34,192 nt of DNA. Origin: a virus. Taxonomy: Duplodnaviria; Heunggongvirae; Uroviricota; Caudoviricetes. The position numbers are program-made. Each line of letters starts with the position of its first letter. Position 1 is the first letter of the stretch. Below are positions 13,301 through 19,300 of the stretch, piece by piece. Location: the IMG/VR virus record IMGVR_UViG_2879742664_000008, one strand, 5' to 3'.

Positions 13301-16300
13301 CAACTCCCCCTGAGAGTCCATAACACCTTTTTTCACGTAGCGATATCGCCACGCTATCGGCTCTGCTTCCAGCGATGCCCGTGCAATTTTGAATAACTCG
13401 CCCTCTACTCGCGCCATCCCTGAATTGGGGTGGCATTTCGTAATCGCTATTTTTAATTTGGCTTCTTCGATTAATTGTTCTTTTGTTAATTCAGTCATTT
13501 TCATTACCGCCCTTTCAGGCGGCGGTAATGCTGCCAACTTACTGATTTAGTGTATGATGGTGATTTTAAGGTGCTTGCGTGGCTTCCATTTCCATCAGAT
13601 GTCCTTCCTGCTCCGCTACTGAAGGCGTGGTGCGTAACGGCAAAAGCACTGCCGGACATCAGCGCTATCTCTGCTCTCATTGCCGTAAAACATGGCAACT
13701 ACAGTTCACTTACACCGCCTCTCAGCCCGGTACGCACCAGAAAATCATTGATATGGCCATGAATGGCGTCGGATGTCGCGCCAGTGCACGCATTATGGGC
13801 GTTGGCCTCAACACGGTTTTACGTCACTTAAAAAACTCAGGCCGCAGTCGGTAACCTCGCGCATACAACCGGGCAGTGATGTGATTGTCTGCGCTGAAAT
13901 GGACGAACAGTGGGGCTACGTCGGTGCTAAATCACGTCAGCGCTGGCTGTTTTACGCGTATGACAGGATACGGAGGACGGTTGTGGCGCACGTCTTCGGT
14001 GAACGCACTCTGGCCACACTGGAGCGTCTTCTGAGCCTGCTGTCGGCCTTTGAGGTCGTGGTATGGATGACGGATGGCTGGCCGCTGTATGAATCACGCC
14101 TGAAGGGAAAGCTGCACGTTATCAGCAAGCGTTACACTCAGCGCATTGAGCGACATAATCTGAATCTGAGACAACATCTGGCAAGGCTGGGACGGAAGTC
14201 ACTGTCGTTCTCAAAATCGGTGGAGCTGCATGACAAGGTCATCGGGCATTATCTGAACATAAAACACTATCAGTAAGTTGGAGTCATTACCTCAGGCGGC
14301 CTCCTGATGTTCTGAGGGTGCAGAAATCCCTCCGGTTAAGGATTAAATTTTATTTGCTGTGCTAAATTTAATTATTCAGTTTTTATTCCTGCTCTCAAAA
14401 CAGCCTCTGCCATTCTGATATCCGGATTTTCTGAAATCATCTTTTCCGGCGAGTCGCAATCACCACCACATTCAGTTATGCGTTCATGACCAAAACGAAT
14501 TGTGGTTTTGTGCGCATTAATCATTTGTGTAAGCGCATCTGTCAATTCTGCAATGCGTTTGTCTTTAACTTCCAGCTCTTTCAGTAAAGCCAGTACGTCA
14601 GGAGCGCTAACATCAACGACGGTTACGCGCGATTTCAGGTAATGCTCATCCGCAAAAGTTCGACCAGTTTTAAAATATCCATCATCCCCCTCACCTGTGC
14701 AGGCATACACAATATGCGTTCTGGAAAATATGCGCTGTATCGACATTTCATCGCCACAAACAGGACATTCCGGCACCTGAATTGGTGAATAACGTTCACG
14801 TAATGCCTGGTAATTAGTCTTGCACACTGGCTGTCTCCTGAAAAATCACCGCATGCCCCAGTTTCTCCGCCAGCGCCAGTTCTGCCTTAGCGCCTGCTGA
14901 CCGCTGCCAGCCTTTCAGCATGTAAATCGCATCCACACAACGAATCATCGCCATGCAGATATCCATGTACTGCGGCTGTGTCAGCCCGTCCGGAAGTACT
15001 GCCGGGTTTAAGACGGTATGCCCTTCCCGTTTCAGTTCCTCTTCCGCATTGTGAAACGCCTCACGGTTGAAATTTTTATACCCGGTCATTGGACCGGCGA
15101 TATAGACTCTCACCCTCACGCCATCACCTCCTGAAAATTACCCTGATAAAACGACAATATGCGCTGCATAACTTCGCTCTTCCGGCACTCGCGACAGATT
15201 ATGTTTAGGCGACTGTCGTAGCGACGTATTTCTCCGTCAGGTAATGACCAGATAAGGTCCGGATCAACCGCAGATGGTTTCTTCAGCTTTGCCCTTGAGA
15301 GCTTTTTACGGGCATTTTGCCAGTCCTTACGCGCCTGTTCAGACGGGAATAACCCGTAACCAGAGTTGTATACATCGCCACTGGCAACCAGCTCTCTGGC
15401 CAGAACGCTCATCAGATATCTTGTTGCCCCAGTTTTAGCTTCCAGTTGTCGTAACGTCTCGCGCCCACTCTGGCGTACGAGTTCAAGAACCTGCCCTTTA
15501 ATTTTTTCCCGCTCTTCTTGTGTAAAAACTTTTGCCACAAGCCCTCCTGAAAATTACCTCATGACCAGAAATTAACACTTACCCCCTGAAGCCCGGCGGA
15601 ATTTCGTTATCCGGTTCAGAAATATGATTCACACAACGCTGGTTGTTCGTGCCGCTTACCGGGAGCAACCAGGGGTTCTCAAAATTCCGGTCCGGTCCAA
15701 AAAACGTCGTCGCTCGCTGAACAAATTCCGTTCCCGTTTTCCCGGTAGCCGCCAGGTATCTTGCGTAACGCCTCACGCCATCCAGCATGGCCTCTGGTGG
15801 CACCCCCTCGCGTAATCTGGCCTTCCAGGCACTGAAAGCGGATTTCTTCGGGTTTGCCCCGGCACGCAACGGGTACTCCCGCCAGACCTGTTCGAACACA
15901 TCCGGATAATCCACTCGTCCCACAGACTGCCCGGTGTTTTCCGGGACTACCCGATCGGCTTCCCGCTGAATGGCGGAATCGGCTTCAGGCTGCTGCAGTT
16001 GGTGTGATTGCTCCGGACTTGCGGTCATCGCCTGCTGCACAGCGCCCGAATCGGCTTTCAGCGCATACGCTGAATCGGCTTCCGGTGTCGTGCCTGCTGG
16101 CTGACCAGGATTGACGGTCTGAACATCCCCTGCCTGGTTCGTGGCGTTTTTTACGCCATGGACCATAGTGTTTTGATCTTCTTGATCTGTATCTTTATCT
16201 GTATCTTTATCTGTCGTGACTCGTCGTGACATGTGCGTGACATATCGTGACGCGCCGTGACAATCGCCATTTTGTTCCCGCTTTCTTTCCCTCTCTCGCT

Positions 16301-19300
16301 GCGCCCTCTTGCGCTCTGCAGGAGATTTTGCGGTTTGCGAAATATTGCCGTTGTCCTCTTTCAGCACCTGGCGTTTTTCCCATCCAGTGATTAAATCACC
16401 ATCAAGTACCCGCCCCTGCATCGTCTGCAAAATTGAATCAATTACCTCTTCTGTCACGTCGAGCGCACTTGCCAAATCTTCTGTCGTGACATCAATGTGA
16501 CCTCGCGTGACATTTCGTGACGCGCTCACCAGGAGGTGGATATACACTGCCATCACTGTTGCAATTGGCTGCCCTGACACCCTGGCAATTGTTCGCCACT
16601 TAGGGTCATTTGGCATGTCATGCCATAATCTGAGCCAGGCGTTAGCCATACTCACCTCTTTTGATACCGAATCTTTTTACTCACAAATTGCCGGAAGTGA
16701 TCCGGTATGAATATTGCGAGTCAATGCACAGCCACAATATTTCCTGCAGGGCCACCACGATTCATCTGGTTGAAACCAGCGATCGCCACTGCGACAAAAT
16801 CATCAGCGTCTCTCACCAGTCGTTCCCGCGTCTCCACTAGTTCCCGAAAATAGGCTGAGCTATGGCTGCGCATTCGGGCCACCAGCAGAGGTGGCATTGC
16901 TTTTTCGATAGCTGGTAACAACGCCTGAATTTTTTTAAGCGCATCAGGGGTGTCTTTCTCCACCCAGCGGAAAATTTTCTGAGTATTGCGAGCCAGGGCT
17001 TCCGGATGGCTGTCGTCATACAGTTCCGGGAACGTCATTCCCAGCTCGAAATACGCTTTGGTAATTTTCGCAGCCGGTACTTTTTCGCCGTCCGGATGCG
17101 CCCAGGCATTCATCGCCATGCGGATGTGTTCATGCTTGATTTTCATGAATCAACTCCCATCAGCTTTTTCGTAGTAGTTTTATTCCTGCCAATAGTTAAA
17201 ATTGCATCGGCAGAAAATAATCCGTTTGATGCAAGAGCGATTTTTTCAGCGTAATTTGTTTCGCCGGTATATTCTGTGCGAGGCAATTTTCCGTTATCCA
17301 TCCATTTATAGATTGCTCTTTGGCTGACACCACAAACGTCGGCCACAACAGCAACGCGAACAGTTTTGATTACATCTTCAAGTGTTTTCTGGTTCATATC
17401 ACCCTCACAATGTGAACTTTGAGTACATGCTATAACAGAACTGACAGTACATTCAAGAGCGAATATCATTGAACTTATGGTTCATGAAGATAAAGCGCGT
17501 AAAGAGTTCGCCAGTAGGCTTGCGCTAGCCTGTGAAAACGCTGGTTATGAACAACATGGAAGGCAGGCAGAAATTGCCCGTCGAATGAAATTAACACCAA
17601 AAGCGGTTAGCAAATGGTTTAATGGCGAAACAATTCCTCGCCGGGAGAAATTAAGGGAATTAGCAACACTAATAGGAACAACACCAACCTATCTTTTGGG
17701 AGAGGATACAGAAGAAAGTGGACAGGTACGTTTCTATCAGGAGTTAAATCCAAGACAAAAAATCATCATTGACCTTCTGGACGAGCTCCCTGACAGTGAG
17801 ACAGATGAACTTTTAAAAACTCTTGAAGAGAAAAAACAGAAGTACAATGCAATTTACGAAGAGTTAGCACGAAAGAAAAAACAAAAAGCCTCTTAAACCA
17901 GCATAAATCCGGTAGCGCCTTCCTCCGGGTTTGTGCTTCACTTTATCCCATCTCATTTTTTTACACACAAAATGTACCATAAGCACTTTACAACAATGAA
18001 CGCAAAGTACATTATATACCTGCCACCCACCCCGCCCCACAGAATGCAGGGCAATACTTCGAGTTACCAGGCAGTGGTCAGGGGTTAAGTAGCCAGCCCG
18101 AGGCGTAAGAACATGACGGCAGGGTTCAACTTTAATAACTATGCAGCAGGTTTTTGTTCCGCTACCCCGGCGTTAAGGGGAAATGAGGTCAGCATGGATA
18201 CTATCGATCTTGGGTAATGACTCCAACTTACTGATAGTGTTTTATGTTCAGATAATGCCCGATGACCTTGTCATGCAGCTCCACCGATTTTGAGAACGAC
18301 AGTGACTTCCGTCCCAGCCTTGCCAGATGTTGTCTCAGATTCAGATTATGTCGCTCAATGCGCTGAGTGTAACGCTTGCTGATAACGTGCAGCTTTCCCT
18401 TCAGGCGTGATTCATACAGCGGCCAGCCATCCGTCATCCATACCACGACCTCAAAGGCCGACAGCAGGCTCAGAAGACGCTCCAGTGTGGCCAGAGTGCG
18501 TTCACCGAAGACGTGCGCCACAACCGTCCTCCGTATCCTGTCATACGCGTAAAACAGCCAGCGCTGACGTGATTTAGCACCGACGTAGCCTCACTGTTCG
18601 TCCATTTCAGCGCAGACAATCACATCACTGCCCGGTTGTATGCGCGAGGTTACCGACTGCGGCCTGAGTTTTTTAAGTGACGTAAAACCGTGTTGAGGCC
18701 AACGCCCATAATGCGTGCACTGGCGCGACATCCGACGCCATTCATGGCCATATCAATGATTTTCTGGTGCGTACCGGGCTGAGAGGCGGTGTAAGTGAAC
18801 TGTAGTTGCCATGTTTTACGGCAATGAGAGCAGAGATAGCGCTGATGTCCGGCAGTGCTTTTGCCGTTACGCACCACGCCTTCAGTAGCGGAGCAGGAAG
18901 GACATCTGATGGAAATGGAAGCCACGCAAGCACCTTAAAATCACCATCATACACTAAATCAGTAAGTTGGCAGCATTACCCTGCAACCGCTATGAAAAAG
19001 GCGGGAAAGATGGCATCACAATGACATTTATCGGCCCTTCCCCCTCTGTTCAGGACAAATCAGCCAGCACTGATAATACCAACATCAACGGCGAAGACAT
19101 GACTGAGATTGAGGAGAGCATGCTTCTACCTGTCTCCGGTCAGGAACTGCCCATTCGTTGGCTTGCTCAACACGGCAGCGAAAAACCAGTAACGCACGTT
19201 TCACGCGACGAACTCCAGGCATTACACATTGCACGGGCTGAAGAACTACCGGCTGTTACTGCCCTGGCTATTTCGCATAAAACCAGTCTGCTCGACTCGC

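What the first reader, a model, noticed from the sequence alone, without database searches (positions are those of the whole stretch)
15579..16655. Replication gene carrying two internal iteron clusters (putative prophage origin)
Five CGTGAC repeats at 10-11 bp spacing (16215..16261) next to AT-rich direct repeats, and a second cluster of four repeats plus one inverted copy (16453..16521), all inside the replisome-organiser gene. This mirrors lambda, where ori lies within gene O, but the short hexamer iteron and the two separate clusters are unusual.
Basis: partly seen in the sequence, partly recalled or inferred. Interest (0 to 1): 0.5.

Follow-up and report, generated by a model that had tools for sequence, protein, structure and literature searches.

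The report
Prophage replication origin inside initiator gene
The repeats are real and most likely form the prophage's replication origin, placed lambda-style inside the gene of a non-lambda initiator found in about 30% of complete E. coli genomes, with a second, co-evolving repeat array in the stretch that encodes the protein's own DNA-binding domain.

Summary
Five CGTGAC repeats at 10-11 bp spacing (16215-16261) abut an AT-rich tract. A second array (16485-16521, one copy TGTGAC) plus an inverted copy (16453) lies 260 bp away. Both are inside gene 15579..16655 (-).

The repeats are DNA-level elements. They fall in all three reading frames, and their synonymous sites are nearly frozen in 23 homologues (0.20 vs 1.47 bits codon entropy, P=1e-6). 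The two-array layout recurs in prophages of many proteobacterial species. The hexamer switches class (GTCACG, GTAACG, CGAACG) in both arrays together (44/44 loci), and tracks residues 116/119 of a basic helix in the N-terminal winged-helix domain.

The linker array is always followed by a purine-rich, 31% GC tract, whatever the host GC, and often by a palindrome. The C-terminal domain is a homologue of the DnaT C-terminal (ssDNA-filament) domain. This lineage has no helicase-loader gene next to it.

Best reading: an iteron-type origin that works like lambda ori but belongs to a different, uncharacterised initiator family. The role of the second array is unresolved. No binding or replication experiment exists, so this is a new variant of a known kind.

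The parts
15579..16655 (-). Replication initiator gene ('phage replisome organizer'). It is 358 codons from the GTG at 16655; the probable true start is the ATG at 16649, giving 356 aa.
   Evidence: ORF. phrog_3729 'replication initiation protein', E 2e-255. NCBI name 'phage replisome organizer'. No Pfam family.
16368..16655 (-). Codons 1-96: predicted winged-helix domain, with helices 3-16, 18-27, 31-47, 58-65 and 69-79 and a beta wing at 80-90.
16485..16521 (-). Array C2: four direct GTCAC(G/A) repeats (coding strand) at 10/10/11 bp spacing. They encode the loop SRNVTRGHIDVT (residues 46-57) between helix 3 and helix 4 of the winged-helix domain.
   Evidence: Synonymous sites are frozen. The array is conserved in position in more than 40 loci and matches the class of array C1 in 44/44 loci.
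16453..16458 (+). Inverted copy of the repeat, 26 bp downstream (in gene direction) of the last C2 copy. It overlaps codons D66-V67-T68.
   Evidence: It is present at the same place in many GTCACG-class loci. V67 is GTG in 20/20 genes. L108 (GTAACG class) has CGTTAC there.
16272..16322 (-). Codons 112-128: basic helix AERKRAQRERERKREQ, the candidate specificity determinant.
   Evidence: Predicted as a helix. Residues 112, 116, 119 and 122 are the positions not encoded by repeats that are most strongly associated with repeat class. In 134 representative proteins residue 116 is K, A/S or V and residue 119 is Q, W or Y according to class.
16215..16261 (-). Array C1: five direct GTCACG repeats at 10/10/11/10 bp spacing in the inter-domain linker. 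These are the putative origin iterons. They encode CHGASRYVTHMSRRVT using three reading frames.
16166..16214 (-). AT-rich tract, purine-rich on the coding strand, directly abutting the last iteron: (ACAGATAAAGAT)x3 followed by CAAGAAGATCAAAAC. It carries two GATC sites (16175, 16184). This is the putative DNA unwinding element.
   Evidence: It is the GC minimum of the gene, 33-35%. Across 45 loci the 36 nt after the last C1 repeat average 31% GC against 54% for the locus (P 1e-8) and 77% purine, independent of host GC.
16135..16165 (.). Imperfect palindrome TGGTTCGTGGCGT-TTTTT-ACGCCATGGACCA immediately beyond the AT-rich tract.
   Evidence: (I7). It is conserved with compensatory changes in L003, L004 and L138-L141. 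An inverted repeat about 50 nt after the array scores above the median of control windows in 38/49 loci (modest support).
15582..15908 (-). Codons ~250-358: DnaT C-terminal-domain-like module. Its tail QRCVNHISEPDNEIPPGFRG closely resembles the E. coli DnaT tail.
   Evidence: The profile of A3 against PDB matches 6aep at E 3.4e-7, 2ru8 at 2e-5 and 9zbt_D at 8e-5, aligned to the last residue. The NCBIfam DnaT model hits residues 335-358.

Best explanation
The five GTCACG repeats in the linker (16215-16261), the adjoining AT-rich purine tract (16166-16214) and probably the palindrome (16135-16165) form the origin of replication of this lambdoid prophage. The origin is embedded in the gene of its own initiator. 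Proposed mechanism: (1) Transcription from the cro side produces the initiator. (2) Its N-terminal winged-helix domain plus the following basic helix binds each roughly 10.2-bp repeat as a monomer, head to tail on one face of the duplex. Residues 116 and 119 of the basic helix read the variable 5' half of the hexamer. (3) The array brings several DnaT-like C-terminal domains next to the low-stability tract. By analogy with DnaT, these domains could coat the unwound single strand as a filament or dock on the host restart machinery. (4) Host DnaB-DnaC is then loaded. Close relatives encode their own DnaC-like or P-like loader immediately downstream, but this lineage does not. The second array (16485-16521, plus the inverted copy at 16453) binds the same protein. 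It acts as an auxiliary site, either for cooperative looping with the origin array or for autoregulation and copy control. What is shown: the repeats, their DNA-level conservation, their co-variation with the protein, the low-GC tract, the folds and the homologies. What is inferred: binding, unwinding, helicase recruitment and the role of the second array.
For: The repeats are real and far above chance. They fall in three reading frames. Codon entropy is 0.20 bits at 10 repeat-covered codons against 1.47 bits at 70 other conserved codons in 23 genes, P 1e-6. The two-array layout is conserved at gene positions ~+130 and ~+390 in more than 40 loci from different species. Spacing within arrays is 10 bp (149 cases) or 11 bp (35 cases). 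The hexamer class (GTCACG, GTAACG or CGAACG) is identical in both arrays in 44/44 loci, and in 112/114 representative proteins when class is inferred from the encoded peptides. Class tracks residues 116 and 119 of the basic helix. The hybrid L120 has a CGAACG-type winged helix but a K116/Q119 helix and GTCACG repeats. Loop insertions in L086, L110 and L123 add extra repeat copies. Across the loci the only window protein that co-occurs with the repeats is the N-terminal domain; cI, Cro, the cII/YdaT-like protein, DUF977 and even the C-terminal domain do not. The same host genus carries different classes (Pseudomonas: L093 and L107 versus L114), which argues against a host factor. A low-GC purine tract follows array C1 in all classes, even in hosts of 69% GC. 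Downstream genes in relatives are helicase loaders or helicases. The N-terminal domain has a winged-helix fold. The C-terminal domain is a DnaT CTD homologue, and the DnaT CTD forms filaments on ssDNA and docks on PriA (PMC13377028). Precedents for an origin inside the initiator gene are lambda O (PMC7466680, PMC6022878) and SPP1 gene 38 (PMC6316719).
Against: There is no experimental evidence of binding, unwinding or origin activity for any member of this family, and I found no paper on it. The repeats are physically inside the N-domain/linker coding sequence, so they cannot segregate from it; co-occurrence alone therefore does not prove binding. The class switches are few independent events on a tree. 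The AT-rich tract is only moderately AT-rich in this window (33-35% GC over about 50 bp). Support for the palindrome is modest (median rank 0.19). The helical phase between the two arrays is not conserved (R 0.38), which weakens a strict looping model. Some relatives lack array C2 (L120, L111, L113, L124), so it is not essential to the family. The prophage in this window is degraded by two IS1 copies and may no longer replicate.
Confidence: 0.75

Rival explanations
1. The arrays are autoregulatory sites only. The initiator, or another regulator, binds inside the gene to block or attenuate its own transcription, and the true origin lies elsewhere in the prophage.
For: Array C2 sits in the 5' part of the gene, where a bound protein array would obstruct elongation. 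An inverted copy accompanies it, and plasmid Rep proteins use inverted repeats as operators (my own knowledge). Some relatives have C1 without C2, so the two arrays can have separable roles.
Against: C1 is always followed directly by a conserved low-GC purine tract, independent of host GC, and often by a palindrome. These features are expected of an unwinding site, not of a roadblock. The location at the junction of the DNA-binding and recruitment domains matches lambda ori (PMC7466680). No other repeat cluster of this kind exists in the window.
Confidence: 0.08
2. Only C1 is functional. C2 is a passenger kept similar to C1 by gene conversion or duplication, tolerated because it encodes a surface loop.
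For: The two arrays share a 39-nt stretch at 72% identity (D1). The loop they encode has low model confidence and tolerates insertions. C2 is absent in several relatives. Inter-array phasing is not conserved.
Against: C2 is retained at the same codons, with frozen synonymous sites, in species from Enterobacterales to Burkholderiales. It switched class in step with C1 at least twice although this changes the encoded amino acids. Insertions in the loop add whole repeat units rather than random sequence. 74 of 80 near-identical copies keep exactly 4+1+5 repeats.
Confidence: 0.12
3. The arrays are binding sites for a different protein with a different function, for example a partition centromere of the parC type (two clusters of phased short repeats), a packaging site, or a host-factor site.
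For: Two clusters of about five repeats at 10-11 bp spacing formally resemble the R1 parC centromere (my own knowledge).
Against: No neighbouring gene is conserved together with the repeats across loci. The window neighbours are cI-, Cro- and cII/YdaT-like, DUF977 and DUF4406 proteins, not partition or terminase proteins. Different repeat classes occur within one host genus. No DnaA box or IHF consensus lies between or beside the arrays; the only DnaA-box consensus match in the scanned region is at 15519, about 700 bp from the arrays, outside the gene, and no IHF consensus was found.
Confidence: 0.03
4. The repeats are a by-product of repetitive amino-acid sequence, or chance.
For: The linker is low-complexity (DKDTDKDTD).
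Against: The repeats use three frames (VT, CH and SR peptides). Synonymous positions are frozen. Poisson P is 8e-13.
Confidence: 0.01

Closest known systems
Bacteriophage lambda ori within gene O (and the Stx-phage variants with six iterons)
   Same: The origin lies in the middle of the initiator gene, at the linker between an N-terminal DNA-binding domain and a C-terminal recruitment domain. The order in the direction of transcription is iterons, then an AT-rich tract (PMC7466680, PMC6022878), then a palindrome (the lambda palindrome is from my own recollection). The gene sits just downstream of cro/cII in the rightward early operon.
   Different: The protein is not homologous to O (no Phage_rep_O hit). 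Lambda iterons are 18-19-bp inverted repeats, each bound by an O dimer. Here the repeat is an asymmetric 6-bp core repeated every 10-11 bp, which implies monomers in a head-to-tail array. Lambda has one array; here a second array lies in the coding sequence of the DNA-binding domain. Lambda O recruits P-DnaB; here the C-terminal domain is DnaT-like and no loader gene follows.
Bacillus phage SPP1 oriL within gene 38 (replisome organizer G38P), plus the distant oriR
   Same: [quoted passage not shown] There are weak PHROG matches to 'replisome organizer' families (phrog_4880 E 2e-5). The DnaD-like winged-helix fold is shared.
   Different: There is no Pfam Phage_rep_org_N hit. In SPP1 the second site is about 13 kb away, whereas here it is 230 bp away in the same gene. 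SPP1 encodes its own loader and helicase.
E. coli DnaT (primosomal protein I), C-terminal domain
   Same: The C-terminal ~90 residues align to the DnaT CTD through to the last residue, with a near-identical tail (SEPDxxIPPGFRG). The DnaT CTD forms filaments on ssDNA and docks on PriA (PMC13377028).
   Different: The DnaT N-terminal domain is replaced by a sequence-specific winged-helix domain, so localisation would be by origin sequence rather than by PriA/PriB at a fork. The Pfam DnaT_2 model does not hit this protein.
Iteron plasmids with separate origin and control arrays (P1 incC/incA, F, R6K)
   Same: Two arrays of the same initiator-binding repeat occur, one next to the unwinding element and one apart from it (my own knowledge).
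   Different: Plasmid iterons are about 19-22 bp and the control arrays are intergenic. Here both arrays are coding, and one encodes part of the binding domain itself.

Membership tests
Iteron-type replication origin (lambda-ori-like) | Array of three or more direct repeats in helical phase | tested here: met
   There are five copies at 10/11 bp spacing. Across loci the spacing is 10 bp in 149 cases and 11 bp in 35.
Iteron-type replication origin (lambda-ori-like) | AT-rich unwinding element directly adjacent to the array | tested here: met
   The tract 16166-16214 is the GC minimum of the gene. Across 45 loci the tract is 31% GC against 54% for the locus, P 1e-8.
Iteron-type replication origin (lambda-ori-like) | Repeat sequence co-varies with the specificity domain of the cognate initiator | tested here: met
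   Three classes are seen, concordant in both arrays in 44/44 loci. They track residues 116 and 119.
Iteron-type replication origin (lambda-ori-like) | The initiator binds the repeats | not testable with these tools
   This needs EMSA or footprinting.
Iteron-type replication origin (lambda-ori-like) | The segment supports initiator-dependent autonomous replication | not testable with these tools
   This needs an origin-plasmid assay or marker-frequency analysis.
Lambda O protein family (Pfam Phage_rep_O) | Sequence match to the family model | tested here: not met
   No Pfam family is found at E<=0.01.
SPP1 G38P-type replisome organizer (Pfam Phage_rep_org_N) | Sequence match to the family model | tested here: not met
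   There is no Pfam hit. Only weak PHROG hits to 'replisome organizer' families are found: phrog_4880 at 2.4e-5 and phrog_5968 at 4.4e-4.
DnaD-like / winged-helix origin-binding domain | Winged-helix fold of the N-terminal domain | tested here: met
DnaT C-terminal domain | Sequence homology to the DnaT CTD, including the C-terminal tail | tested here: met
   hmmsearch of A3 against PDB gives 6aep 3.4e-7, 2ru8 2.2e-5 and 9zbt_D 7.9e-5. NCBIfam DnaT hits the tail at E 7.5e-4, below its cutoff. Pfam DnaT_2 is not hit.
DnaT C-terminal domain | Forms an ssDNA filament and interacts with PriA | not testable with these tools
   This is known for E. coli DnaT (PMC13377028) and is inferred here.
Partition centromere (parC-like) | Adjacent partition genes (an ATPase or actin-like protein plus an adaptor) | tested here: not met
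   The window neighbours are cI-, Cro- and YdaT-like, DUF977 and DUF4406 proteins. No neighbour is conserved with the repeats.

The most novel reading that the evidence does not exclude
The initiator and its sites form a self-referential unit. The coding sequence of the DNA-binding domain carries a functional second array of the protein's own binding sites, for looping, handcuffing or autoregulation. Any change of specificity must then be written simultaneously into a basic recognition helix, the linker array and a loop of the protein itself. In addition, the origin is opened and handed to host DnaB-DnaC (or PriA) by a DnaT-type ssDNA-filament domain tethered to the iterons. This would allow a one-gene phage replicon with no loader, and would be a natural fusion of origin recognition with the restart primosome.
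Probability: 0.3. Interest if true: 0.7.

Novelty: new variant of a known kind. Interest (0 to 1): 0.55.

Why it matters
This gene is present at >=80% coverage in 1647 of 5426 complete E. coli genomes, where RefSeq calls it a hypothetical protein. Its N-terminal domain defines more than 1000 protein clusters with no Pfam family. Placing the origin gives a testable map of where these very common prophages start replication.

The three natural specificity classes, together with two candidate specificity residues, offer a simple system for studying how an initiator and its sites change specificity together. This is especially so because one array is constrained to encode part of the protein.

The DnaT-like C-terminal domain links origin-dependent initiation to the machinery of replication restart, at a time when the way DnaT recruits DnaB/DnaC is still unknown (PMC13377028).

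Tried and rejected
- **Viral-contig scan:** the scan for relatives returned only 99%-identical copies and was of no use for covariation. The genome collection gave the needed diversity.
- **Helical phasing between the two arrays:** not conserved. Distances range from 221 to 282 bp (one outlier at 350), circular R 0.38, so I do not claim a phased loop.
- **DnaA boxes and IHF sites in or near the gene:** no IHF consensus was found, and the only DnaA-box consensus match in the scanned region (15519) lies outside the gene, about 700 bp from the arrays.
- **Promoter and terminator consensus scan:** counts were at or below shuffled expectation. The only notable item was the palindrome at 16135-16165.
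- **Minor GTGAC cluster near 28.7 kb:** three loosely spaced 5-mers inside a coding region, judged to be chance.
- **Own iterons in the Stx-phage-type gene (L003):** I looked for an array next to its (CAGGAA)n tract. None was evident, only the shared AATCGGCTTC repeats.
- **Literature searches for this origin or family:** nothing found.

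
Full report
**1. The observation.**
The minus-strand ORF 15579..16655 (358 codons) contains CGTGAC on the + strand at 16215, 16225, 16236, 16246 and 16256. It also contains copies at 16485, 16506 and 16516, a one-mismatch copy TGTGAC at 16496, and one inverted copy at 16453. Three 12-bp AT-rich units occupy 16180-16214. Nine of the 30 CGTGAC sites in the window fall in 310 bp, where 0.19 would be expected (Poisson P 8e-13). No other comparable cluster exists in the window. On the coding strand the unit is GTCACG. I call the four-copy array in the 5' part of the gene C2 and the five-copy array in the middle C1.

**2. The repeats are DNA elements, not amino-acid repeats.**
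- In C1 the hexamer is read as VT, as xCHx and as xSRx, that is, in all three frames.
- In a codon alignment of 23 homologues with 64-91% identical N-terminal domains, the 10 conserved codons whose third base lies in a repeat have a mean synonymous-codon entropy of 0.20 bits. V49 is GTC in 23/23, T50 is ACG in 23/23, G52 is GGT in 23/23 and H53 is CAC in 22/22.
- The 70 other conserved codons average 1.47 bits (Mann-Whitney P 1e-6). R51, which sits between two repeats, varies freely.

**3. What the gene is.**
- There is no Pfam hit. The gene matches phrog_3729 'replication initiation protein', and NCBI calls it 'phage replisome organizer'.
- It follows cI-, Cro- and cII/YdaT-like genes, the position of O in lambda.
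- The protein is modular. BLAST against phages shows that codons 1-~157 are shared, at about 70% DNA identity, with Pseudomonas and Aeromonas phages. Codons ~160-358 are shared with Stx phages that have a different N-terminal part (alignment). The junction is exactly at C1 and the AT tract.
- AlphaFold2 predicts a helical winged-helix domain (residues 3-96), a basic helix (112-128), about 120 disordered residues, and a small helical C-terminal domain.
- A profile of the family matches the C-terminal domain of DnaT in the PDB (6aep, E 3.4e-7; also 2ru8 and 9zbt_D). The alignment runs to the last residue: QRCVNHISEPDNEIPPGFRG here against [20 protein letters not shown] in DnaT.

**4. Comparative evidence.**
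- A scan of one genome per species returned 52 loci from Enterobacterales, Pseudomonadales, Burkholderiales and other groups.
- In about 27 of them, GTCAC(G) repeats occur in two arrays at gene positions ~+116-165 and ~+376-456, often with an inverted copy at ~+179-197.
- More distant relatives keep the layout but use another hexamer: GTAACG in 5 loci and CGAACG in 12.
- In all 44 loci that have at least two copies in each array, the class is the same in both arrays.
- Spacing within arrays is 10 bp (149 cases) or 11 bp (35 cases).
- Genes that share only the C-terminal module (L003, L004) have no such repeats.
- C2 encodes the loop between helix 3 and helix 4 of the winged-helix domain. The loop reads RNVTRGHxDVT in the GTCACG class, NATERGRTQ in the CGAACG class, and xSEERGxVQ in relatives without C2. 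Several genes have loop insertions that add whole repeat units.
- Both arrays have therefore changed sequence in step, at the cost of changing the protein.

**5. Who binds.**
- Across the loci, tblastn finds none of the window's neighbours (cI, Cro, cII/YdaT-like, DUF977, DUF4406) and not even its C-terminal domain. Only the N-terminal domain travels with the repeats.
- Different classes occur within one host genus, which argues against a host factor.
- Among residues not themselves encoded by repeats, those most associated with class are 119, 116, 112 and 122, which lie on one face of the basic helix.
- In 134 representative proteins (clusters at 50% identity) I inferred class from the peptides that the repeats encode. 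Residue 116 is K in 77/89 GTCACG-type, A or S in 24/24 CGAACG-type and V in 10/13 GTAACG-type proteins. Residue 119 is Q in 71/89, W in 24/24 and Y in 8/13. The class inferred from the C2 loop equals the class inferred from the C1 linker in 112/114.
- L120 has a winged helix resembling the CGAACG clade, but a K116/Q119 helix and GTCACG repeats in C1.
- I infer that the invariant recognition helix and wing contact the constant ACG half of the repeat or the backbone, and that the basic helix reads the variable half. This is an inference. The sequences are related by descent, so the counts are not independent events.

**6. The rest of the origin.**
- The last C1 repeat is followed directly by (C/A)(T/C)AGATAAAGATA-type sequence in all classes.
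- The next 36 nt average 31% GC against 54% for the loci (Wilcoxon P 1e-8) and 77% purine on the coding strand. There is no significant dependence on host GC; the tract is 28% GC in a 69% GC host.
- In the window this tract is 16166-16214. It is the GC minimum of the gene and carries two GATC sites.
- Beyond it lies an imperfect palindrome at 16135-16165.
- In L003, L004 and L138-L141 the palindrome is kept through compensatory changes: GGCGT/ACGCC to GGCGA/TCGCC, and GGTCC/GGACC to GGTTC/GAACC.
- Across 49 loci, the best inverted repeat within 110 nt after C1 scores above the median of control windows in 38 cases (median rank 0.19) and starts about 53 nt after the last repeat. I regard this support as modest.
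- The order iterons, AT-rich tract, palindrome, in the direction of transcription, is that of lambda ori. The iterons and AT tract are documented in PMC7466680 and PMC6022878; the lambda palindrome is from my own recollection.

**7. Helicase loading.**
- In relatives the next gene is a lambda-P-like loader (L087, L090, L091, L112, L141), a DnaC-like loader (L100, L138-L140, the Stx phages) or a primase/helicase or helicase (the Pseudomonas and Aeromonas phages).
- In this window, and in phage Tritos, the next gene is DUF977, which in the Stx phages lies after dnaC. This lineage therefore has no adjacent loader gene.
- The DnaT C-terminal domain forms a helical filament on single-stranded DNA and docks on PriA. 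How DnaT recruits DnaB/DnaC is unknown (PMC13377028).
- I propose that the iteron-bound array presents several DnaT-like domains to the adjacent tract. There they stabilise the opened strand and recruit the host helicase with host DnaC. None of this is shown.

**8. The second array.**
- Its conservation, its frozen synonymous sites, its concerted class switches and the stability of the 4+1+5 pattern in 74 of 80 near-identical copies argue that it is functional.
- Its absence from some relatives (L120, L111, L113, L124) and the lack of conserved helical phase relative to C1 argue that it is auxiliary.
- Cooperative looping with C1, handcuffing or copy control as in iteron plasmids, and autoregulation by obstructing the 5' part of the gene all remain open.

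**9. Comparison and novelty.**
- The locus works like lambda ori/O and SPP1 oriL/G38P (PMC6316719), but it fails the sequence membership tests for both protein families.
- The repeat type differs from lambda: an asymmetric 6-bp core once per helical turn, not an 18-bp palindrome bound by a dimer.
- It has a second array inside the coding sequence of the binding domain, and its recruitment domain is DnaT-like.
- I found no description of this origin in the searchable literature.
- The gene occurs at >=80% coverage in 1647 of 5426 complete E. coli genomes, annotated as hypothetical. The N-terminal domain has 1016 representative clusters at E<=1e-10.
- I rate it a new variant of a known kind, of moderate interest. 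The concept is classical. The family, its co-evolving double array and the DnaT fusion appear to be undescribed.

**10. Caveats.**
- Everything about function is inferred from sequence.
- The repeats cannot recombine away from the N-terminal domain, so linkage is built in.
- The number of independent class switches is small.
- The prophage in this window is interrupted by two inverted IS1 copies and may be inactive, although its origin elements match the majority form.

Noticed in passing
window 13524-14291 and 18213-18980: Two 768-bp IS1 copies in inverted orientation bracket a 3.9-kb segment. The segment holds the whole immunity and replication module: the Ead-like gene, DUF4406, DUF977, the initiator with its origin, and the cII/YdaT-like, Cro-like and cI-like genes. 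Compared with phage Tritos, the right copy replaces the dicB/dicF region and truncates the 5' end of the exonuclease VIII gene. The arrangement resembles a composite transposon carrying a replicon.
   Followed up: partly
window 15954-15989 and 16050-16085: Four copies of AATCGGCTT(C/T) (coding strand GAAGCCGATT, encoding the peptide EADSA) lie in the disordered middle of the gene. They are also present in the Stx-phage genes that share only the C-terminal module (L003). Natural length variants (P0004, 324 aa) look like deletions between these repeats. I do not know whether they are DNA sites or just recombination-prone low complexity.
   Followed up: partly
window 15116-15538 (-), compared with L003, L004 and L138-L140: Relatives with the same DnaT-like C-terminal domain carry a DnaC-like (IstB_IS21) gene between the initiator and the DUF977 gene. 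In this window and in phage Tritos the DnaC-like gene is missing and DUF977 follows directly.
   Followed up: partly
L126 and L134 (Serratia and Pantoea loci), gene nt ~330-470: These distant relatives have no GTCACG-type arrays. Instead they carry clustered ACTACG/CGTAGT (partly palindromic) repeats and a different middle part ('YVYFV...GIS.NPWAR'), which may be an inserted domain.
   Followed up: no
L105, L108, L115, L117, L123, L139, L140 (GTAACG class): GTAACG contains TAA in one frame, so coding arrays of this class can use only two of the three reading frames (peptides VT(Q/H) and xNA). This is an extra constraint on an origin that must also be translated.
   Followed up: no
window 16175 and 16184: Two GATC (Dam) sites sit 9 bp apart inside the putative unwinding tract (GATCTTCTTGATCTGTATCTTT), which loosely resembles the oriC 13-mers. 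GATC also occurs in the tract of several relatives (AerPh, L089, L096, L123).
   Followed up: no
window 16220-16231 and 16452-16463: The inverted copy near C2 and one C1 copy extend to a 12-nt complementary pair (CTCGTCGTGACA / TGTCACGTCGAG, 92%). This may be a chance extension of the hexamer.
   Followed up: no
L003 and L004, gene region encoding SSQEQEQEQEQEQE: The Stx-phage-type initiators, which have a different N-terminal domain, carry a (CAGGAA)n purine tract and the same palindrome at the position equivalent to the AT tract here. No obvious iteron array precedes it, so their origin-recognition sites remain unidentified.
   Followed up: partly
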